DNA of 64,000 nt from NCBI GenBank assembly GCA_964467515.1, contig CAYXQP010000001.1, positions 1,509-65,508 on the forward strand. Reading direction: 5' to 3'. A program made the position numbers and the translations under genes. The stretch comes from an uncultured Eubacteriales bacterium (lineage in GTDB: Bacteria; Bacillota; Sulfobacillia; DYIH01; JBBIPI01). Numbering within the stretch: the first letter of the stretch is position 1; each line of letters opens with the position of its first letter. This document shows positions 12,768 to 61,506 of this stretch, one piece after another. Under the pieces are notes generated by a model. That model was not told the DNA's origin and ran no database searches. It was given only the letters and a program-made list of their open reading frames with translations.

Positions 12768-13240
12768 GCCGCCATCTCCCCCTCCAGGGAACCCACGGTC
12801 TCCGCCAGTTCGCCGGCATCCACGGCCAGCAGCCGGTCCAGGTCGAGCAGGAGGAGGATCCGCCCCGCCAGATCGGCCACGCCCCGCACGAAGGCGCGCA
12901 CGTGGGGCGGCACCGTGGCCGGGACCCCCTGCCACACGGACCTCTCGAAGGAGCGAACCTCCACCACTCCGTCCACCACCAGCCCCACCGCCTGCCCGCC
13001 CACGTCCACGATGACCACCACCGGCCGCTCGCCGGCCGGCTCCCGGCCGAGCCGCAGGCGCAGGTCCAGGAGGGGCACCACGCGGCCCCGCAGGTCCATG
13101 ACGCCGAGGACGTGGGGCGGACAGTCGGGCAGGGAGGTCACCCCCTCGAGGAGCCTGATCTCCCGGACGCCCGCGATGCCGGCGGCGTACTCGGCTCCGC
13201 CCACGCTGAAGACCAGGTACTTGTCCTCGCTTTCAGACAT
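12755..13240 (-). CDS. cheW: Chemotaxis coupling protein CheW (copy 2)
   Basis: 161 aa CheW domain (YLVFSVGGAEYAAGIAGVREI...VLGVMDLRGRVVPLLDLR). Confidence 0.85.
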   Translation of the reverse strand: MSESEDKYLVFSVGGAEYAAGIAGVREIRLLEGVTSLPDCPPHVLGVMDLRGRVVPLLDLRLRLGREPAGERPVVVIVDVGGQAVGLVVDGVVEVRSFERSVWQGVPATVPPHVRAFVRGVADLAGRILLLLDLDRLLAVDAGELAETVGSLEGEMAACRS

Positions 13241-13303
13241 GGGAAGTCCTCCTCCCCGCCGCAGCCGATCCGCATTCGTTGTCGTGAAAGCCCCTATCGG
13301 CCT

Positions 13304-13681
13304 TTAGCCGCCGCACCGCCGGAAGAGGAGGCGGTCCCCCGGGCGGACCCCCGCCCGGCGCAGGGAGGAAGATGGCAGTTCGAGAGTGGCCCAGGCCCCG
13401 GGGCAACCGGCCACCCGCCAGGGAGGCATTGCCTCCGCCAGGCGCAGGACGGTGCCGTCGAGGGCCAGGAAGGCCACGTCCAGGGGCTCTCGCAGGAAGA
13501 AGGTGTGGATGGCCCGGCAGGGGGTGAGGAGAATCCCGTCCCTCCCGGCCGGCCAGCCGCCCAGGACGCCTGCGAGCCGGCCCAGGAAGGCGCCGACAAC
13601 CCTGACGGACCGGGCCACCGGCCTCCCGCCCTCCACCACGACCTCGACGTCCCGCGGCAGCGCCGCGCGGGAGAGAACCAT
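13304..13681 (-). CDS. DUF192 domain protein
   Basis: 125 aa with a DUF192-like core (...GILLTPCRAIHTFFLREPLDVAFLALDG...). Confidence 0.6.
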   Translation of the reverse strand: MVLSRAALPRDVEVVVEGGRPVARSVRVVGAFLGRLAGVLGGWPAGRDGILLTPCRAIHTFFLREPLDVAFLALDGTVLRLAEAMPPWRVAGCPGAWATLELPSSSLRRAGVRPGDRLLFRRCGG

Positions 13682-13779
13682 CAGGAGCCTCCTTCCCGGA
13701 AGCCGGCAGGAAGCCGGCCCTTCACGTCGAATGTCGTATCAAGACGTCGCAACCTGTCAAAGGATCGCGGAAAGGGGGC

Positions 13780-14097
13780 TTGCCTTTGAACGGCGGTGGG
13801 ACGGCTGCCTGCGCGCGGCTGCAGGACACGCTGCGCCTTGCGGCGGTGAGGGCGGTCAAGGTCCTCCCCGAGGAGACGCTGGTGCTGACCGACTCGGGAA
13901 GCCTGACCATCCCGGCCGGCGGCGAACGGGTGACCCTCGTCGTGGGGGGCACCCTGCGCTCCCACCTGCGCCGGCCCGCCCTGGCCACCTTTCTCTACTA
14001 TCCGGGCGGCGAGGGAGCCACGGTCCTGGTGGAGGACCACGGAGACCGCTGGACGCTCCTGGTCCAGGAAAAGCCCGCCGCGGCGGCGGCCCGCTAG
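13780..14097 (+). CDS. Hypothetical protein (no recognisable family)
   Basis: A 105-codon ORF between two minus-strand genes, with high GC3 coding-like composition. A TTG start at 13780 follows AAAGGGGG, or an alternative TTG 6 nt downstream. Its 3' end overlaps the stop of the LamB/YcsF gene by 4 nt. Confidence 0.35.
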   Translation: MPLNGGGTAACARLQDTLRLAAVRAVKVLPEETLVLTDSGSLTIPAGGERVTLVVGGTLRSHLRRPALATFLYYPGGEGATVLVEDHGDRWTLLVQEKPAAAAAR

Positions 14098-53186: not shown

Positions 53187-53891
53187 TCAGAGGGGGGCGA
53201 GTAAGGCGGGGTCGTCGTGGCGGGGGGAATTGACCCGGTGCGAAACAGGGTGGAGGGTGAGGGCGTCGCCGGCGAGAGGGGCGAGGAGACGGGCCAGGGC
53301 GGCCGGATCGGTGAGGGAGGGATCGAGCCAGCCCTCCTCCGCCTCCGGGCGCAGGATCACCGGCATCCGCTCGTGCAGGGACCGCAGGGCGCCGTCCGCC
53401 GCCGTGGTGAGGATGGCGAAGCCGGGCTCGCCGTCGGGTCCGGTCTCCCAGAGGCCGGCAAAGGCGAAGAGGCCGCCCTCCCGCGGGCGGACGTAGAAGG
53501 GGTCCCGGCGGTGGGCCTCCTGGCGCCACTCGTAGAAGCCGTCGGCGGGGACGAGGCAGCGGCGGTGGCGCAACGCACGGCGGAAGGCGGGCCGCTCGGC
53601 CGCCGTCTCGGCGCGGGCGTTGATGAAAGGGCCGTGCCCGCGCTGTCGGCTTCCCCCCTCGCTCGGTCCCGGGCGAGGGCCGGTGCCCGCCCAGGCCGGC
53701 TCCAGGCCCCAGCGCATGGCCAGCCCCCGGCGACCGCCTTCAGCATGGGGTCCCGGCCCGGCCGTGACCACCAGGGCGAGCTGGGAAGGGGCGATGTTGT
53801 AGCGCCCGCACACCCCGGCCGGCAGCGCCGCCAAGCCGAAGCGCCGGGCCACCGTCACGGGGTCGGCGGTGAGGGTGTAGCGCCCGCACAC
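53187..53891 (-). CDS. SOS-response-associated peptidase (SRAP/YedK; abasic-site DNA-protein crosslink family)
   Basis: An N-terminal MCGRY... with Cys2 as the catalytic residue, and the DUF159/SRAP fold (...FYEW...). Confidence 0.8.
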   Translation of the reverse strand: MCGRYTLTADPVTVARRFGLAALPAGVCGRYNIAPSQLALVVTAGPGPHAEGGRRGLAMRWGLEPAWAGTGPRPGPSEGGSRQRGHGPFINARAETAAERPAFRRALRHRRCLVPADGFYEWRQEAHRRDPFYVRPREGGLFAFAGLWETGPDGEPGFAILTTAADGALRSLHERMPVILRPEAEEGWLDPSLTDPAALARLLAPLAGDALTLHPVSHRVNSPRHDDPALLAPL

Positions 53892-53893
53892 GG

Positions 53894-54334
53894 TCAGCGA
53901 AGGGCGGGCGTGGCCGCGGCTTCGTCCACGATGGCCCGGATGACGACCTCGACCTCCTCGGGCACTCCGCCCAGGTCGGCTCCCGGAAAGAAGGCGCCGA
54001 TGGCCGTGGGCCGCATGGCGGCGATGACCGTGCGCCCGTCCTCCTCGTACACGGCGATGGGACAGGGCAGAAAGATGCTGATGAGGTTGTCGGCGGCCAG
54101 GACCCGGTGGGCGTACCGGGCACCGCAGACCTCGACGATTTGCATGGGACCCCGCTCGAAACCCTTTTCCCGCAGGAGGGTGGCCACGTCGTGCCGTCCC
54201 AGCACGCGGAAGCCCTTCTCCCCCGCCTTAGCCTCCACCGCCGCCACCGCCTCGGGGACCGGCTTCGCCGTCGTCACCCAGAGGGCGAAATCCTCTCTCC
54301 GCAACGGGATCACCTCCCGGACCAGTCTCGCCAC
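53894..54334 (-). CDS. DUF302 domain protein
   Basis: 146 aa; the DUF302 core ...ATLLREKGFERGPMQIVEVCGARYAHRVLAAD.... It lies 3 nt upstream of the SRAP gene. Confidence 0.7.
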   Translation of the reverse strand: MARLVREVIPLRREDFALWVTTAKPVPEAVAAVEAKAGEKGFRVLGRHDVATLLREKGFERGPMQIVEVCGARYAHRVLAADNLISIFLPCPIAVYEEDGRTVIAAMRPTAIGAFFPGADLGGVPEEVEVVIRAIVDEAAATPALR

Positions 54335-54377
54335 CGCATCAAAAATGGTAGCACCTGAGTCCCGGCGGCGCCCGTCG

Positions 54378-54590
54378 TCAGGCCTCCTCGGCCTCGTAAC
54401 CGGCGCGGCGGATGGCTTCCTTTATGAAAGCCGCGTCCACGGCCCCTTCCTCGTACTCCACCGTGACGCGCTTGCCGCCCAGGTCCACCCCCACCGAGCG
54501 GACGCCGCCCAAGCCCCCCACGGCCTGCTTGATGCGCCGCTCGCAATGCCCGCACGACATCCCCGGAACCCGCAAGGTGGCAACCGCCAT
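54378..54590 (-). CDS. copZ: Copper chaperone CopZ (HMA domain)
   Basis: MAVATLRVPGMSCGHCERRIKQAV...; GMxCxxC heavy-metal-associated motif. The start is likely the ATG at 54590. Confidence 0.8.
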   Translation of the reverse strand: MAVATLRVPGMSCGHCERRIKQAVGGLGGVRSVGVDLGGKRVTVEYEEGAVDAAFIKEAIRRAGYEAEEA

Positions 54591-54650
54591 TCCCCATCCT
54601 CCTCCTCGCATCGTGGCTAAAGCCAGAGTCTTGCGGCGGCCTTTTCTCGG

Positions 54651-54962
54651 TCAGCCGCCGTGACGGTGGCGCCCGTCACCGCCCTCCCCCGCCCGCGCAC
54701 CTGCTCTGCCAGCACCGCCGCCTTGCCATCCGCCATCGCCTCCCCCACCGGATCCTGCCTCGGGGCCTCCGCCCGGCAGGGCGCGCCGCGCCAGGGGGAT
54801 GACCACCGGCAGGGTGATGATCAGGGTCAGGAGCACCACCCAGGCCAGGCCGCCCCCCACCGCCACGCCACCCAGGCCCGCGCGGGCAGCCGCCAAGGCG
54901 TAGAGGATGCCGGCCGCCAGGGCGATGGCCCAGCAGGTGTAGGTCGCCCGCCTCACCGTCAA
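54651..54962 (-). CDS. Possible small membrane protein (two TM helices) between copA and copZ
   Basis: 103 codons with two hydrophobic helices and a Gly-rich, low-complexity tail. No family was recognised; this could be a shadow ORF. Confidence 0.3.
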   Translation of the reverse strand: MTVRRATYTCWAIALAAGILYALAAARAGLGGVAVGGGLAWVVLLTLIITLPVVIPLARRALPGGGPEAGSGGGGDGGWQGGGAGRAGARAGEGGDGRHRHGG

Positions 54963-55056
54963 GAGCCTCTCCTCCCTCCGCCCCGCGCCCCTCCTCGTGC
55001 ACCGCCGCGGAAACCGCGGCCGAGGCGGCGGCAGGGCGCGTCACCCCCCGGCCGCC

Positions 55057-57594
55057 TCAGGCGGCGGCAGGGCGGAACCGCTTGAGCAGCAGCGTGTTCA
55101 GCGTCACCGACACGGAGCTCGTGGCCATGAAGAAGGCCGCCAGCTCCGGGCTCACGATCCAGCCCCGCCACGGGTAGAGCAGGCCGGCGGCGATGGGTAT
55201 GCCCAGCACGTTGTAGACGAAGGCCCAGAACAGGTTCTGCCACACCTTGCCCATGGTGGCCCTGGCCACCTGGAGGGCGGCCACCACCCCGCTCAGGTCC
55301 TCCCGGATGAGGATCACGTGGCCCGTCTCCTTGGCCACGTCGGTGCCGCTGCCGATGGCGATGCCCACGTCCGCCTGCGCCAGCGCCGGGGCGTCGTTGA
55401 CGCCGTCGCCCACCATGGCCACCTTGCGGCCCTCGCCCTGCAGGGCGGCCACCTCCCGCGCCTTGTCGCCCGGCAACACCTCGGCCAGCACCCGCTCGAT
55501 GCCCACCTGCCGGGCGATGGCCCGCGCCGTCCGGGCATTGTCGCCCGTGATCATCACGACCTCCAGGCCCAAGCGCCTGAGGGCGGCCACGGCCTCGGCC
55601 GCGCCCGGCTTCACCGTGTCGGCCACAGCCACCACGCCCTTGAGCTCGCCGTCCGCGGCCAGGAACATGGCCGTCTTCCCGTCTTCCTCCAGCCGCTCGG
55701 CCAAGCCCAGCACCCCTTCGCTGGTCACGCCCCGCTCCCGCATGAGCTTCCGGTTGCCGAGCAGTACCCGGCGGCCACCCACCCGCGCCTCGACCCCGTG
55801 GCCCGGTATGGCCTGGAAGGACGCGGGTTCCGCCACCTCCACCCCCTGGTCGCGCGCCGCCCGCACGATGGCCTCGGCCAGCGGGTGCTCCGAGTACCGC
55901 TCCACAGCGGCCGCCAGGGCCAGGGCCTCGCTGCACCAGAAGGGGCTCTCCACCGGCCGCCCCTCCTCCACCGCCACCACGTCGGTGACGGAGGGCTCGC
56001 CCCGGGTGAGGGTGCCCGTCTTGTCGAAGACGATGGTGTCGAGGCGCGTGGCCGCCTCCACCGCGTCGGCACCCTTGAAGAGGATGCCGTTCTCCGCCGC
56101 CTTGCCGATGCCGGCCATCATGGCGCTGGGCGTGGCCAGGCCCACGGCGCAGGGGCAGGAGATGACCAGCACCGTCACGCTCAGGAGGAGGGCGAAGCCG
56201 AAGGGGCCGATCTCCCCCAGCGTGTACGGCGAGAGGAGGAAGCGGCTCTCGGGCCGGAAGAAGGCGCCGTAGCCGTAGAAGAGCCAGAAGAGGAAGACGA
56301 TGAGCGACAGCGCGTGCACGCCCAGGATGAAGTGGCCCGCCACCCAGTCGGCCAGGCGCTGGATGGGCGCCCTGGAGCCTTGGGCCTCCTCCACCAGGCG
56401 GATGATCTGGGCCAGGGCCGTCTCCTTGCCCACCCTGGTGGCGCAGAACCTGAGCATCCCCGTCTTGTTGATGGTGCCGCCGGTGACGGCGTCTCCCTGC
56501 CTCTTCTCCACGGGTAGGCTCTCGCCCGTGAGCATGGACTCGTCCACGGCCGAGTAGCCCTCCAGCACCACCCCGTCCACCGGCACCGACTCGCCCGGCC
56601 GCACCACCACCACGTCGTCCACCCGCACCTCGTCCGCCGCCACCTCCACCTCCCGCCCGTCGCGGACCACGCGGGCCACCTTGGGCTGGAGCTTCATCAA
56701 CCGGCGGATGGCCTCGGAGGTGCGCCCGCGGGTGAGGGCCTCCAGGTACCGGCCGAGGACGATGAACATGGTCAGGAGGGCCGCCGACTCGAAGAAGACG
56801 GCCTTCTCCCCGCCGAAGCCCGCCCGGGGGAAGAGGGTGTTGACGACGGCGATGAGGTAGGCGGCGCCGATGCCCGTGGCGTAGAGGAGGTTCATGTCCG
56901 TGACGCCCCGGCGCAGCCCGTGGTAGGAGTTGCGGAAGAACTGCCATCCCGGCCCCGCCACCACGGGGGTGGTCAGGAGCCACAGCAGGTAGCGGTTGCC
57001 GAACCAATGGGGGAGAAAGCCCACGTAGTTGCTGAAAGTGCCGGCCATAACCAGGAGGGAGAGGGGCACGGCCAGGAGGAGGTGGCGCCGCTGCCGGACG
57101 ATCTCCCGCTGCCTGGCCTCCTGCTCCCGGTCGATGGCCTCGACCCCTTCCAGCACCTGGCGGGCCGGGTAGCCGATCCCCTCGAGCAGCCGCCTCAGCT
57201 CGGCCGGCTCCACCAGGCCGGCGTAGTAGGCGATGCGCGCCACCGACGTGGCCTGGTTGACCTCCGCCTCCACCACGCCCGGGACGCCGCGCAGGGCCTT
57301 CTCCACCACCCCGGCGCAGTGGGGGTTGTCGGCGCCCTCCACGAAGAGCCGCAGCTCCTCCCGCGCCACCCGGTAGCCCACGTCGGCCACGGCCCGGGCC
57401 AGCTCCTCCGGCGAGGCCCGCCCGGGCTCGAAGGTCACGGCCGCCTGGCCGGCCGCCAGGTTGACGGTGGCCTCCCTCACCCCGGGCACGTTGCGCAGGG
57501 ATTCCTCCACGGCCCGCACGCAGGCGGCGCAGGTCATGCCCTCCACCTTGAGCGTGCAGCGTTCCTGCTCGGCCAACGTCACCACCCTCGCCAA
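55057..57594 (-). CDS. copA: Copper-translocating P1B-type ATPase CopA with two N-terminal HMA domains
   Basis: 845 aa with the motifs GMTCAACV and [11 protein letters not shown] (HMA), CPC, DKTGTLT and GDGVNDAP. Confidence 0.9.
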
Positions 57595-57685
57595 CCGTTG
57601 TTATCGGAAACAGGTTACCTCTTTGAACCGGCAGCTACAAAACCACCTGCTTCGGCCCGGATGGCTTCGCCGACGCCGGCCCCCA

Positions 57686-58660
57686 TCACTCCTCGGCGCC
57701 GCTGTGCCAGAACCGCCCGCCGTCCTCGCTCCGGTAGACCCGGCCCCAGCCGTCCACCGCCAGGATCACGTCGGGCCGGGAGGGGCTCACGGCGGCGGCC
57801 ACGGCGTCGGCCACGCCCAGCGGCCGCCAGGTGGCTCCCTCGTCCGCGCTCACGAGCACCCCCCGGTCCGTGGTGGCCAGGAGCCGGCCGCCCCTGGCGT
57901 CGAACGAGAGCCCCATCACCATGGCACCGACGGGGGTGAGCGTGGTTCACGTACGGCCGCCGTCCCGGCTGACCAGGACCCCCTTCTCCATGGTCCCCGC
58001 CCAGATCACGTCCTCCCCGGCGGTGCGGCCGGCCCGCACGGCCAGCCCGTGGGTGGACTGGGGCAGCTCGGCGGTGACGTCGGTCCACGTCCCGCCGCTG
58101 TCCTCGCTGCGCAGGAGCCCCCGACCCACCACAAAGGCGTACAGGCGACCAGGATCGCCGTCGGCGAGGGCCAGACCGTGCACGTCGGCGCTGGCGAGGT
58201 CCCGGCTCGCCCGCCAGGTGCGCCCGCCGTCCTCGCTCACGGCGAAGCCCAGGTGGATGCCGGCGTAGACGCGGCCCGGCCGCGCCGCGGAAGCGGCGAG
58301 CCCCATGATGTCGCCGCCCAGCGCGGCCTGCTGCCACGTCCGCCCGCCGTCCTCGGTGAGGAAGAGCCCCTGGTGCGTGCCGGCCACGGCCCGCCGGTCG
58401 TCGGCCGGGTCGAAGACGAGGGCGTGGAAGTCGCCGGCCCCTATCTTCCACGCGGACCCGCCGGCCGAGGCCCCGCCGCCCGCGGGCGAGCGCCTGTCCA
58501 GCCACACGGTCAGGCCCACCAGCACCAAGCCCAGCACCACGGCGCCTGCCACCAACGGTAGGAGGCCTCGCCCCGCCTCTCCCCGGCGCCGCCCGGGCGC
58601 CGCTTCCTTCTTACCGACCGGTGAAGCCGCCTTCGTGGGAGATGCCGCGCCGCCCTTCAC
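57686..58660 (-). pseudogene. Membrane-anchored BNR/Asp-box repeat protein (Ycf48-like beta-propeller) interrupted by one in-frame TGA
   Basis: ORFs 57947..58660 and 57686..57922 are in the same frame, separated only by the TGA at 57947..57949. Four Asp-box-like repeats precede the TGA and four follow it. The TGA falls where the conserved Trp of S-x-D-x-G-x-T-W should be (SRDGGRT-*). Confidence 0.55.
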
Positions 58661-58789
58661 CGCCCATCGCTCCTCCCGCGCTCTGTCCGTTCCAGCTTAG
58701 TCTCCCCGCTTGTGGCGATGGTGTAAGGGATGTGTGGATCTTGTGAAGCACGGCCGCCGGCAGGGCGCGATCGCCCACGTCGCGACGCG

Positions 58790-59799
58790 CTAGCCGATGT
58801 GCGCCACGCCCGGGACGAGGGCGGCCAGGACCCCGAGCAGCACCGCCCCCGCCGTGACGACCGCCAGGGGGACGAGCACCGGCCAGCGGCGGCGCGGGTC
58901 GTCCGTCGGACTCCGATCGAGGAACGGGAAGATGACCAGGAAGGCCAGCAACAGCATGGGCACCCAGAAGAGGGAGGCTACGCCCAGGCGGTTCTCCAGG
59001 GCGTAGAGGGGCAGGAAGACCCACGGGGGCTTCGTCACCTCGATCCCCTCGACGCCCGGCGGTCCGAGCGGCGCCGGCCGGAGCGCGGCCAGGAGGACGA
59101 GGGCGCCCGCCAGCAGGAGGCCGTAGGCCGCCAGCACGCCCAGGTGCTCGAGGAAGGTGGATGCGGCCTCGTCCCGTCCCCGCGGCGGCGCCTCCTTCCC
59201 CTCCGGCCCGGCGGCCACGGCCAGGCCGTGCACCCGGACGAGGAAGAAGTGGGCCACGAGGAGCAGCGTGATAGGAAGGGGAGCATGGAGATGTGGCTCA
59301 CGAAGGTCCTGAGGAGGAGGGGAACCCTCTCCACCGGCGCGGCCGAGAACCAGAGCCCGAGGGAGGCCAGGAAGCCGGCGATAGCCTCGTTGTGGGCCAT
59401 GGCCTCCACGGCCTCCTGGTCGGCCCGGAGCACCGTCCCGGTGAAGTACACGCCCACCGTTAGAAAGAGGAGAGCGACACCGACGAGCCAGTTGGCCTCC
59501 CGGGGCCGGCGGTAGGAACCCCACCAGGCGACGCGCAGGAGGTGCAGGATAACGGCCAGAATCATGGCCTGGGCCGCCCAGAAGTGGACGCCGCGCACGA
59601 AGGAGGCGCGCCCGCTCCGCGCTATCTCGCTCACGCTCTGCCAGGCGGCATCGGGCATGGGGTGGTAGGAGCGCGCCAGCGCCAGGCCGGTGACCAGGAG
59701 CAGCGCGAAGCTCACGAGGGCCAGCCCGCCCCTGGCCCGGCGGACGGTCACCGGCGGCATCCGCTGCACGGCCTCGCTCCCGCCAGCCTGCTCCCTCAT
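58790..59799 (-). pseudogene. Cytochrome b of a b6f/bc-type complex (fused b6 plus subunit-IV-like) with an apparent 1-nt deletion in a C4 (G4 on +) tract
   Basis: The N-terminal frame from the ATG at 59799 reads MREQAGG...FVRGVHFWAAQAMILAVILHLLRVAWWGSYRRPREANWLVGV...RTFVSHISMLP. At about 59277..59280 it shifts into the frame reading ...LLLVAHFFLVRVHG...KPPWVFLPLYALENRL.... One extra C would restore HISMLPLPITLLLVAHFF. Confidence 0.65.
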
Positions 59800-60355
59800 C
59801 GCCTGGTCCTCCTCCCGAGGAAGTACCCGCCGGCCGCCGCCAGGATGTAGCCGCTGGCAACGGCCAGGAGCAGGCCACCGTCGGCGGCCGGCCTCGGCTC
59901 GGGCGGCACCGCGGCGGGTGGGGGCACTGGGGCGAGGCCAGCAACAACGCCACCGCCTGCCGCACAAGGGTGGGCGCGTCCCGGGGGAGCTCCCCCTCAT
60001 GGGCCCGCGCCCCCTCGACCGTGCCGAGCGCCATCGCCACGACCACGCTCAGCGCCACCGTGAAGAACGTCCGCGCCATGCGACACGTCCTCCGCCCGCT
60101 GACCTGGAGAAGCATTTTCAGAGAAAACGGCCACCGGCACAAGGTAAATGTGTTGATATTGTGAATTCATAGGGTAAGAGTAGACGTAAAGCGCCCGAGC
60201 GATAGAATGGTAACCGGTGATGAAACATGTCTGCCGGGGGCAAAGGCACAGGCGGCAAGGCTGCTGCGACCTCTTCCACGGCTTCGACCGGTGGCCGGGG
60301 CCGGCAGCGGCGGAACCGGGGGCGGAGTCCATGGAAACCGCGCGTGGGTTTAGGT

Positions 60356-60871
60356 ATGATCGTCGGGAGTGCAGGTGTCTTCCTGGTCCTGCTTCTCCTT
60401 TTGGCCAGAGGGTGGCCGAAGCCAGCGGGGCAAGATGCCTCACCCTCCCCGGCCGGCCCCGGCAGCCCGGCGGCGGAAGGCGCAGCGGCCCTCGGTCCGG
60501 ATTCCCCCCGGGACGAAATCGTCGCCGCCGCGCGCCGAGGCAATATCTCCTCCCTCTGGAAGGGAGGAGATACGCGCCCCCTGCTGAATCCCGAGCAGTT
60601 TACCGGAGAGCGTTTCAACGGCCTTGACGTGGCCGAGGGTTACCGTCTCGCCGCGGCGACTCCGCCCGACGTCCTGGATGAGATCTTCTGCTACTGTTAC
60701 TGTGCGTTGAACCACGGGCACAGGAGCCTCCTGAGCTGCTTCACGGACATGCACGCAACCCGGTGCGTGGTCTGCCTGCGCCAGGTGCGGCGGGCCTACG
60801 AGCTCTACCGCCAGGGCGCCGACATCCGCCGGATAGAGGAGACCATCGACCGCGAGTTCGCTGTAGGCTAG
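60356..60871 (+). CDS. PCYCGC-motif family protein (Cys-rich, N-terminal signal/TM); function unknown
   Basis: The ATG at 60356 is preceded by an AT-rich promoter-like island at 60120..60215 (TTGATA...TAAGAG; TAGAAT). The protein has the hydrophobic N-terminus MIVGSAGVFLVLLLLLARG and ...DEIFCYCYCALNHGHRSLLSCFTDMHATRCVVC.... Confidence 0.5.
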   Translation: MIVGSAGVFLVLLLLLARGWPKPAGQDASPSPAGPGSPAAEGAAALGPDSPRDEIVAAARRGNISSLWKGGDTRPLLNPEQFTGERFNGLDVAEGYRLAAATPPDVLDEIFCYCYCALNHGHRSLLSCFTDMHATRCVVCLRQVRRAYELYRQGADIRRIEETIDREFAVG

Positions 60872-60963
60872 GGAAGGCGCGAAAACCGGCGCACCCGCGT
60901 CGTCGCCCCCACCGGCGTCGAGACCGGCATGGGCGACGGCGTCCGCGCCGTTCACAACCGCCA

Positions 60964-61506
60964 TCAGACCCGCGTCACCTGGCTCGGATCGTAGTTCAAC
61001 CGCCGGGTGATCTTGCCCGTGTCGACGATGACGGTCCCGTCCTTGATCTCGATGGCCATCAGGTCCATGGAGCGCGGGGCCGGGCCCGCCACCTTCTGCC
61101 CGGTGATCTCGTAGATGGACCCGTGGCACGGGCAGTGGAAGCGGCCCGGGTCCTCGGGCGGCGACCAGGGCACGGTGCAACCGAGGTGCGGGCACTTCCA
61201 GTACAGGGCCAGCAACCCTTCCGGCAGGCGTGCCAGGTAGAACTTGCCCTCGGTGACCTTGGTCACGCTGTTGACGGGGAAGTCGCCCACCCTGCCGGCC
61301 ACGACCTTGCCGCCGAAGCCGGTGGCCTTCATGGGCCAGAAGCTGCCCAGGCTCGCGACGCCGCCCTGGATCAGGAAGACCCCCACGGAACCCCACATGG
61401 CGTGCCGCAGCAATTGCCGCCGGGTGATCCGCCCTCCGGGCGTTCCCCCGGGCTTCCTCTCGGGCTTCTCCTGCGGCGTGCCCCTCTCCTTTTCCTCGCC
61501 AGCCAC
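60964..61506 (-). CDS. Rieske [2Fe-2S] protein of a cytochrome b6f/bc-type complex (Tat signal)
   Basis: ...RITRRQLLRHAMWGSVGVFL is a twin-arginine signal, and CPHLGC ... CPCHGS are the Rieske cluster ligands. The start is about the GTG near 61506; the ORF extends to 61719. Confidence 0.8.
   Translation of the reverse strand: MAGEEKERGTPQEKPERKPGGTPGGRITRRQLLRHAMWGSVGVFLIQGGVASLGSFWPMKATGFGGKVVAGRVGDFPVNSVTKVTEGKFYLARLPEGLLALYWKCPHLGCTVPWSPPEDPGRFHCPCHGSIYEITGQKVAGPAPRSMDLMAIEIKDGTVIVDTGKITRRLNYDPSQVTRV

What the first reader, a model, noticed from the sequence alone, without database searches (positions are those of the whole stretch)
57686..58660. BNR/Asp-box beta-propeller protein with a single in-frame TGA exactly at a conserved Trp codon
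ORFs 57947..58660 and 57686..57922 are collinear in one frame, interrupted only by the TGA at 57947..57949. Both halves carry Asp-box repeats (S-x-D-x-G-x-T-W: EDGGRTW, SEDGGRTW, SEDSGGTW, SRDGGRT-*, ADEGATW, SEDGGRFW). The TGA replaces the W of the fourth repeat, so it is a TGG to TGA point change. That is not a homopolymer error, unlike the other disruptions in this window.

Three explanations remain. It may be a true nonsense mutation (a recent pseudogene). It may be a base-call error. Or the UGA may be read through, since near-cognate Trp readthrough of UGA is the commonest natural suppression. The full-length product would be an N-terminally anchored, Ycf48-like propeller encoded next to the cytochrome b6f-like genes.
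Basis: seen in the sequence. Interest (0 to 1): 0.5.

Follow-up and report, generated by a model that had tools for sequence, protein, structure and literature searches.

The report
Recent nonsense mutation in propeller gene
A gene for a membrane-anchored, six-bladed propeller protein next to copper-export genes carries a real, recent TGG-to-TGA stop mutation that a near-identical strain lacks, so it is an ordinary new pseudogene allele and not a recoding signal.

Summary
On the minus strand, ORFs 58660..57947 and 57922..57686 are one 324-codon reading frame broken only by TGA at 57947..57949. That TGA replaces the Trp of the fourth of six Asp-box repeats. The position is Trp in 58 of 59 homologues, all of them single proteins.

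The stop is not an assembly error. An independent Logan assembly of run SRR11582147 has the same TGA. A contig from the sibling run SRR11582145 is 99.87% identical, has no indels, and has TGG, encoding the intact 324-aa protein. The two closest orthologues (about 85% identical) also have TGG.

TGA is the main stop codon in this window (33 of 50 coding-like ORFs). No stable RNA structure follows the stop, and no other in-frame TGA occurs.

The best reading is a recent nonsense allele still segregating in the population. It gives a null or leaky allele through basal tRNA-Trp readthrough only.

The protein is not Ycf48. It has six blades rather than seven and fails the Ycf48 and F510_1955 model cut-offs. 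Its family sits next to copper and envelope thiol-redox genes in all nine neighbourhoods examined. The adjacent cytochrome b gene is also broken, by a 1-nt frameshift.

The parts
57947..58660 (-). N-terminal part of the broken gene (237 codons plus the premature TGA). It holds a basic cytoplasmic tail, a TM anchor, blades 1-3 and most of blade 4.
   Evidence: identical to P0002
58670..58677 (-). Shine-Dalgarno-like GGGAGGAG, 9 nt upstream of the GTG start at 58660
   Evidence: read from the sequence
58493..58549 (-). Predicted single transmembrane helix (residues 38-56), the N-terminal anchor
   Evidence: AlphaFold2 model, helix 38-56; coordinates
57947..57949 (-). Premature TGA replacing TGG (Trp238, last residue of Asp-box 4). 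The change is G to A at window 57947.
57686..57946 (-). Untranslated remainder of the gene (86 codons plus the natural TGA stop): last strand of blade 4 and blades 5 and 6. An ATG at 57922 opens the 78-aa ORF, and no Shine-Dalgarno sequence precedes it.
55057..57594 (-). copA (P-type copper ATPase with N-terminal HMA domains), immediately downstream. This is the conserved neighbour of the propeller gene in both close relatives.
54378..54611 (-). copZ-like HMA metallochaperone gene, same strand, further downstream

Best explanation
The locus is one gene for a type-II membrane-anchored protein with a compact six-bladed Asp-box beta-propeller on the outside of the cell. It has been knocked out in this genome by a single G-to-A transition that turns the conserved Trp238 codon TGG into TGA. 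The mutation is real and evolutionarily very recent. It is still polymorphic, because a strain about 99.9% identical over this locus, found in a sibling sequencing run, keeps TGG and the intact protein. Translation stops inside blade 4. The product lacks one strand of blade 4 and all of blades 5 and 6, cannot close the ring, and is most likely degraded (inferred). Only the ordinary low-level misreading of UGA by tRNA-Trp would give a trace of wild-type protein (inferred from E. coli data). From its gene neighbourhoods, the intact protein most likely acts as an extracytoplasmic interaction scaffold in copper homeostasis and envelope thiol-redox maintenance (inferred by association, not shown). 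Paralogues in the lineage may buffer its loss.
For: The stop and the frame are as described. The repaired protein is a BNR/Sortilin-Vps10-type propeller. Trp238 is W in 58 of 59 homologues, all of which are single proteins of 277-351 aa that reach the last blade. The closest orthologues, L001 (FWPU01000558) and L003 (a MAG labelled Clostridiales bacterium), have TGG at the aligned codon and an uninterrupted gene followed by copA. Logan contig L002 (SRR11582147) has the same TGA, with 4 SNPs and no indels over 7,467 nt against the window. Logan contig L004 (SRR11582145) has TGG and encodes the exact repaired 324-aa protein, with 9 SNPs and no indels over 6,704 nt. Within the gene, the two alleles differ only by the stop and one synonymous site, so no decay has yet occurred. 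TGA ends 33 of 50 coding-like ORFs in the window, and the other same-frame ORF pairs are normal gene junctions. The RNA downstream of the stop folds no better than shuffled sequence, z = +0.8. The AF2 model (pLDDT 85.7) shows a TM helix at residues 38-56 and six blades, each with an Asp-box, and places the stop in blade 4. Copper and thiol-redox genes appear in all nine neighbourhoods examined. Paralogues lie nearby in relatives.
Against: I could not see reads, sequencing platform or sample metadata. The independence of the window's assembly from SRR11582147 is therefore inferred only from the 4 SNPs between them. Because the allele is so young, the intact downstream sequence cannot distinguish a dead gene from a gene rescued by readthrough. 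The functional assignment rests only on gene neighbourhood. No experiment or paper was found for this family.
Confidence: 0.87

Rival explanations
1. The TGA is a sequencing or assembly error, and the organism really has TGG.
For: It is a single-base difference. The neighbouring cytochrome b gene also looks broken, which could suggest a low-quality consensus. Reads were not available to me.
Against: A separate k-mer-based assembly of run SRR11582147 has the same TGA and differs from the window at 4 other sites. The sibling run SRR11582145 gives TGG on a haplotype with 8 further private SNPs. The two states therefore behave as alleles of distinct haplotypes, not as noise. A systematic platform error would be expected in both runs.
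Confidence: 0.04
2. The UGA is decoded at a useful rate, either as Trp by near-cognate tRNA-Trp readthrough or by programmed recoding, selenocysteine or an altered code. The gene would then remain functional at reduced dosage.
For: UGA is misread by Trp-tRNA-Trp at about 2-4% in E. coli K-12 reporters (PMC10570021). Such readthrough would restore exactly the wild-type residue. From my own knowledge, not tested here, an A 3' of UGA, as in this UGA-A context, was reported to favour leakiness in E. coli. The downstream 86 codons are still intact.
Against: TGA is not conserved: L001, L003 and L004 all have TGG. No stable downstream hairpin or SECIS-like structure is present. The ancestral residue is Trp, not Cys. 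TGA is the commonest genuine stop in the window, and no other gene has an in-frame TGA. No tRNA gene lies in the window. The intact downstream sequence is explained by the allele's youth.
Confidence: 0.06
3. The two ORFs are a functional split gene whose two polypeptides reassemble into one propeller.
For: An ATG lies 8 codons after the stop (57922). Gene callers list both ORFs in two assemblies.
Against: No Shine-Dalgarno sequence precedes the ATG. The break lies inside blade 4, not between blades. The C-terminal piece has no signal peptide or anchor, while the N-terminal piece is anchored with its propeller outside, so the two would be on opposite sides of the membrane (inferred). All 59 homologues, and the sibling strain, have one chain.
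Confidence: 0.02

Closest known systems
Ordinary nonsense (TGG to TGA) pseudogene alleles segregating in bacterial populations
   Same: It is a single G-to-A transition at a Trp codon. The ancestral state is kept in the sister strain and in orthologues. No further decay has occurred. Paralogues are available.
   Different: Nothing differs in kind. The only notable point is that both alleles can be seen in sibling public sequencing runs.
Ycf48 / HCF136, photosystem II assembly factor (PDB 2XBG, 5OJR)
   Same: Both are single-domain Asp-box beta-propellers of about 300 aa on the outer (lumenal) side of an energy-transducing membrane. Foldseek hits have probability 1.0 and TM about 0.5. The Pfam PSII_BNR match is marginal, 27.7 bits against a cut-off of 27.
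   Different: This protein has six Asp-box blades. Ycf48 has seven (seven is from my knowledge of 2XBG). The NCBIfam Ycf48 model scores 25.8 bits against a cut-off of 326. It has a TM anchor instead of a lipoprotein or signal peptide. Its neighbours are copper and thiol-redox genes, and its relatives are labelled Clostridiales, Chloroflexi and Dehalococcoidia, which are not oxygenic phototrophs.
F510_1955 family 'glycosylhydrolase' (NCBIfam NF045728), named after an Anoxybacillus BNR lipoprotein of unknown function
   Same: It is the best-scoring named family, E = 1.4e-37. Plasmid homologues carry this name. Its function is also unknown (PMC3948429).
   Different: The score of 129.3 bits is below the family cut-off of 175, and the match is in 3 pieces. 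The F510_1955 protein was described as a lipoprotein, whereas this one has a TM anchor and no lipobox Cys.
GH74 xyloglucanases (e.g. PDB 6P2M, 7KN8, 2CN2)
   Same: They are the top Foldseek matches and share the Asp-box propeller repeat.
   Different: GH74 enzymes are about 700-780 aa (target lengths). From my own knowledge, they comprise two tandem seven-bladed propellers forming a catalytic cleft. The match covers only about a quarter of the target (TMt about 0.25) with rmsd 6-11 Å. No carbohydrate genes lie nearby.
Basal UGA readthrough by tRNA-Trp in E. coli
   Same: The codon is the same, and the near-cognate tRNA would insert the original amino acid.
   Different: That is a background error of a few per cent (PMC10570021). 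Nothing here (conservation, structure, context) marks this site as a selected readthrough signal.

Membership tests
BNR/Asp-box beta-propeller superfamily (Pfam PF02012 BNR, PF15902 Sortilin-Vps10) | Repeated S-x-D-x-G-x-T-W motifs at about 40-45 aa spacing, scoring above the Pfam gathering thresholds | tested here: met
   Six motifs are present. BNR scores 44.3 bits against 27, and Sortilin-Vps10 scores 59.8 bits against 33.
BNR/Asp-box beta-propeller superfamily | Beta-propeller fold | tested here: met
   The AF2 model has pLDDT 85.7 and pTM 0.77 and shows six four-stranded units. Foldseek hits to GH74 and Ycf48 propellers have probability 1.0.
Ycf48/HCF136 PSII assembly factor | Scores above the NCBIfam PRK13684 equivalog cut-off | tested here: not met
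   25.8 bits against a cut-off of 326, and the match covers only residues 188-240.
Ycf48/HCF136 PSII assembly factor | Seven-bladed propeller | tested here: not met
   The model has six Asp-boxes and six blades. TM-score to Ycf48 chains is only about 0.5, with rmsd about 6 Å.
Ycf48/HCF136 PSII assembly factor | Occurs in oxygenic phototrophs and acts on D1/PSII | tested here: inconclusive
   No photosystem gene was seen among the window ORFs scanned. The closest named relative is a MAG labelled Clostridiales. The whole genome was not available.
F510_1955 family glycosylhydrolase (NF045728) | Scores above the equivalog cut-off of 175 bits | tested here: not met
   129.3 bits. The protein is related but outside the curated family boundary.
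GH74 xyloglucanase | Two tandem seven-bladed propellers of about 700 aa with a catalytic cleft | tested here: not met
   This protein has a single propeller of about 250 aa. TM normalised to the target is about 0.25.
Programmed UGA recoding (selenocysteine or readthrough signal) | UGA conserved at the site in orthologues | tested here: not met
   TGG is present in L001, L003 and L004.
Programmed UGA recoding (selenocysteine or readthrough signal) | Stable stem-loop (SECIS-like or stimulatory) just 3' of the UGA | tested here: not met
   The 81-nt fold has z = +0.80, and 157 of 200 shuffles fold at least as well.
Altered genetic code with UGA = Trp or Gly (tables 4 and 25) | UGA not used as a terminator and frequent in-frame UGA in genes | tested here: not met
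   33 of 50 coding-like ORFs end in TGA. This is the only in-frame TGA inside a domain in 64 kb.
Pseudogene by nonsense mutation | Premature stop in a frame that is uninterrupted in orthologues, with loss of essential parts of the fold | tested here: met
Pseudogene by nonsense mutation | Absence of a functional full-length product | not testable with these tools
   This needs proteomics, ribosome profiling or a reporter assay.

The most novel reading that the evidence does not exclude
The TGA allele is not a dead gene but a hypomorph kept in the population. Readthrough of UGA-A by tRNA-Trp would restore the exact wild-type protein at a few per cent. Dosage of a copper-linked envelope propeller would then be tuned by a nonsense polymorphism, possibly responsive to growth state, since UGA readthrough varies with physiology in E. 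coli.
Probability: 0.05. Interest if true: 0.45.

Novelty: already known. Interest (0 to 1): 0.15.

Why it matters
The direct value is for annotation. The two ORFs should be annotated as one pseudogene or disrupted allele of a single propeller gene, not as two genes, a selenoprotein or a recoding site. The stop should not be 'corrected' as an assembly error.

Two smaller points follow. First, this uncharacterised Asp-box propeller family, often labelled 'Ycf48-related', 'sialidase' or 'F510_1955 glycosylhydrolase', sits next to copper and envelope thiol-redox genes in every neighbourhood I examined. That gives a testable functional lead. Second, the natural TGA/TGG pair in near-identical strains would serve as a ready-made knockout comparison if the organisms are ever cultured.

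Tried and rejected
- **Altered genetic code.** Rejected, because TGA is the main stop codon.
- **Other in-frame stops in the window.** The eight other same-frame adjacent ORF pairs I inspected are ordinary gene junctions; several have an obvious ribosome-binding site and start codon after the stop, and none splits a domain.
- **Selenocysteine or a stimulatory structure.** No stable fold follows the stop. The ancestral residue is Trp in 58 of 59 homologues.
- **Suppressor tRNA nearby.** No tRNA gene lies in the window.
- **More close relatives.** The genome-contig scan gave one locus, L003. The metagenome-contig scan gave only FWPU01 again plus distant hits.
- **Sample identity.** Full-text search for SRR11582145, SRR11582147, FWPU01, GCA_900174565, MTF170219 and JBBIPI01 found nothing. 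Platform and habitat remain unknown.
- **Literature on the family.** There is one descriptive mention of F510_1955 with function unknown. Proteobacterial COG4447 BNR proteins are linked to an RND export cluster in a fitness study, which is a different context. I found nothing on a copper link.
- **Decay test.** Comparing downstream and upstream divergence between the TGA and TGG alleles is uninformative, because they are identical downstream of the stop.
- **Ycf48 membership, GH74 membership and F510_1955 equivalog membership.** Each failed a defining test.

Full report
**1. The observation**

Read on the minus strand, window 58660..57686 is one frame of 325 codons with a single internal stop, TGA at 57947..57949 (…GGC CGT ACG TGA ACC ACG…).

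The mechanical ORF list gives a 237-aa ORF (GTG 58660 to 57947) and a 78-aa ORF (ATG 57922 to 57686) in that same frame.

A GGGAGGAG motif lies 9 nt upstream of the GTG.

Third-position GC is 0.91 before and 0.98 after the stop, so both halves look coding in this 72% GC genome.

**2. It is one gene in every relative, and the codon is Trp**

With W restored, the 324-aa protein finds 1,378 homologues.

- In an alignment with 59 of the best, all are single proteins of 277-351 aa that extend through the last blade.
- Column 238 is W in 58 and F in 1.
- The two closest orthologues have an uninterrupted gene with TGG at the aligned codon. They are L001 (metagenome contig FWPU01000558, 85% aa identity) and L003 (MAG labelled 'Clostridiales bacterium MTF170219_bin_3', 82%).

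**3. The stop is real and still polymorphic**

The 90%-identity cluster of the truncated protein has three members:

- the 237-aa fragment (NCBI and Logan);
- the 78-aa fragment (NCBI and Logan);

| Contig | Source run | Codon at 57947..57949 | Difference from window |
|---|---|---|---|
| L002 | Logan SRR11582147 | TGA | 4 SNPs, no indels, over 7,467 nt |
| L004 | Logan SRR11582145 (sibling run) | TGG | 9 SNPs, no indels, over 6,704 nt |

A three-way comparison shows 11 variable sites:

- Eight are private to L004, including 57947.
- Two are private to L002.
- One is private to the window.

TGA therefore sits on two slightly different haplotypes, and TGG sits on a third that is about 0.1% diverged.

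Inside the gene, the alleles differ only by the stop and one synonymous site (58559). TGG is ancestral, because both outgroups have it.

This pattern fits a true, very recent nonsense SNP. It does not fit a base-call or assembly artefact.

One limitation remains. I could not see reads, platform or metadata (one search found no paper), so the independence of the window's assembly from SRR11582147 is inferred only from the SNPs between them.

**4. Nothing indicates recoding**

- TGA terminates 33 of 50 coding-like ORFs in the window.
- The eight other inspected cases where two coding-like ORFs abut in one frame are ordinary gene junctions, for example the cheY/cheB-like junction TGACGAAGGAGGGTG.
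- The 81 nt around and after the stop fold no better than shuffles, with z = +0.80.
- The window holds no tRNA gene.
- The ancestral residue is Trp, not Cys, which argues against selenocysteine.
- Basal misreading of UGA by Trp-tRNA-Trp is real, about 2-4% in E. coli K-12 reporters (PMC10570021), and would restore the wild-type residue. The allele may therefore be leaky, but that is true of any TGG-to-TGA mutation.

**5. What the truncation does**

An AlphaFold2 model built on the 60-sequence alignment has mean pLDDT 85.7 and pTM 0.77. It shows:

- a disordered, Lys/Arg-rich N-terminus;
- one TM helix at residues 38-56;
- from about residue 70, six units of three to four strands, each unit carrying an Asp-box.

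The stop falls at the end of the Asp-box of blade 4. The 237-aa product would therefore lack the last strand of blade 4 and all of blades 5 and 6, and could not close the ring (inference).

The 78-aa ORF has no Shine-Dalgarno sequence and no export signal. Even if it were made, it would be on the opposite side of the membrane from the anchored N-terminal fragment. This argues against a functional split gene (inference).

**6. What the protein is**

| Model or library | Score | Cut-off |
|---|---|---|
| Pfam Sortilin-Vps10 | 59.8 bits | 33 |
| Pfam BNR | 44.3 bits | 27 |
| Pfam PSII_BNR (marginal, partial match) | 27.7 bits | 27 |
| NCBIfam F510_1955 family | 129.3 bits | 175 |
| NCBIfam Ycf48 | 25.8 bits | 326 |

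Foldseek against the PDB gives GH74 propellers and Ycf48 with probability 1.0 but TM only about 0.5 and rmsd about 6 Å or more. That is expected for a six-bladed propeller compared with seven-bladed ones.

It is therefore an Asp-box propeller related to, but outside, the curated F510_1955 and Ycf48 families. The F510_1955 founder protein has no known function (PMC3948429).

**7. Likely role**

Every neighbourhood I examined carries copper or envelope thiol-redox genes.

| Locus or protein | Neighbouring genes |
|---|---|
| Window, L001, L003 | copA immediately downstream. In the window and L001, then an HMA chaperone and DUF302. |
| P0024 | Starts 2 nt after a CopC-CopD fusion; a redoxin and two cupredoxins follow |
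| P0004 | BlaI/CopY-type repressor, M56 protease, redoxin, SCO1 |
| P0013 | Cytochrome c, BlaI/M56, DsbD_2 |
| P0018 | Multicopper oxidase, DsbD, BlaI/M56, DUF2933 |
| P0029 | Cupredoxin, BlaI/M56, redoxin, DsbD |
| P0084 | Redoxin |
| Rubrobacter and Deinococcus plasmids | DUF2933 directly upstream and DUF305 in both; CopC, CopD and DUF1775 in Rubrobacter; a CDF transporter in Deinococcus |

One homologue is fused to CcmH, and a paralogue is fused to a redoxin.

I infer an extracytoplasmic scaffold or assembly role in copper homeostasis and envelope redox. This is association only. No literature on it was found.

Relatives carry two or three such propeller genes within 17 kb, which may make loss of one tolerable.

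**8. The surroundings**

The cytochrome b gene is itself broken by a 1-nt frameshift near 59262..59275, inside helix D between the two His ligands. Joining the two frames raises the Pfam Cytochrom_B_N_2 match from profile positions 2-104 (69 bits) to 2-169 of 169 (91 bits).

Both Logan contigs share this frameshift.

This PCYCGC-cytochrome b segment is replaced by unrelated ORFs in L001 and is missing between ubiB and the propeller gene in L003. The b6f link is therefore not conserved, whereas the copA link is.

**9. Verdict**

This is a real but ordinary feature: a young, segregating nonsense allele (TGG to TGA, a G-to-A transition) in a copper-associated Asp-box propeller gene.

| Explanation | Confidence |
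|---|---|
| Recent, segregating nonsense allele | about 0.87 |
| Functionally meaningful readthrough or recoding | about 0.06 |
| Sequencing or assembly error | about 0.04 |
| Functional split gene | about 0.02 |

Interest is low. The useful outcomes are the correct annotation and a functional lead for the family.

Noticed in passing
window 58790..60000 (- strand), shift near 59262..59275: The cytochrome b gene next door has a 1-nt frameshift inside helix D, between the two haem-ligating His residues (context CTCCCCTTCCTATC). Joining the frames restores a full-length Pfam match (2-169 of 169, 91 bits against 69). The same frameshift is present in both Logan contigs, so it is not peculiar to this assembly.
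   Followed up: partly
window 58761..60966 compared with L001 6793..7925 and L003 5603..5770: The segment between the Rieske gene and the propeller gene varies among close relatives. The window has a PCYCGC gene plus cytochrome b. L001 has three unrelated small ORFs. In L003, ubiB lies directly next to the propeller gene, and PCYCGC and Rieske lie on the other side of copA.
   Followed up: partly
loci L010-L018, L001, L003; window 53187..58660: This F510_1955-like Asp-box propeller family lies beside copper or envelope thiol-redox genes in all nine neighbourhoods examined. The partners include CopA, CopZ, CopCD, SCO1, cupredoxin, multicopper oxidase, TlpA-like redoxin, DsbD, a BlaI/CopY-type repressor with an M56 protease, DUF2933 and DUF305. 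No paper on this association was found.
   Followed up: partly
window 60454, 60514, 60558 (PCYCGC gene, + strand): Three of the eight SNPs private to the TGG haplotype (L004) cluster within 105 nt of the PCYCGC gene. This may be a small recombination tract or a locally fast-evolving gene.
   Followed up: no
window 58660..58667 (- strand): An ATG 7 nt upstream of the GTG start is out of frame because of one extra G relative to L003 (ATGGGCGGTG against ATGGCGGTG). The gene therefore appears to start at GTG here.
   Followed up: no
L003 747..1469 and 12935..13828; L001 587..1315: Relatives carry paralogous Asp-box propeller genes close by, one of them fused to an AhpC/TSA-type redoxin domain. The redoxin-fused copy probably lies just beyond the 64,000 end of this window.
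   Followed up: partly
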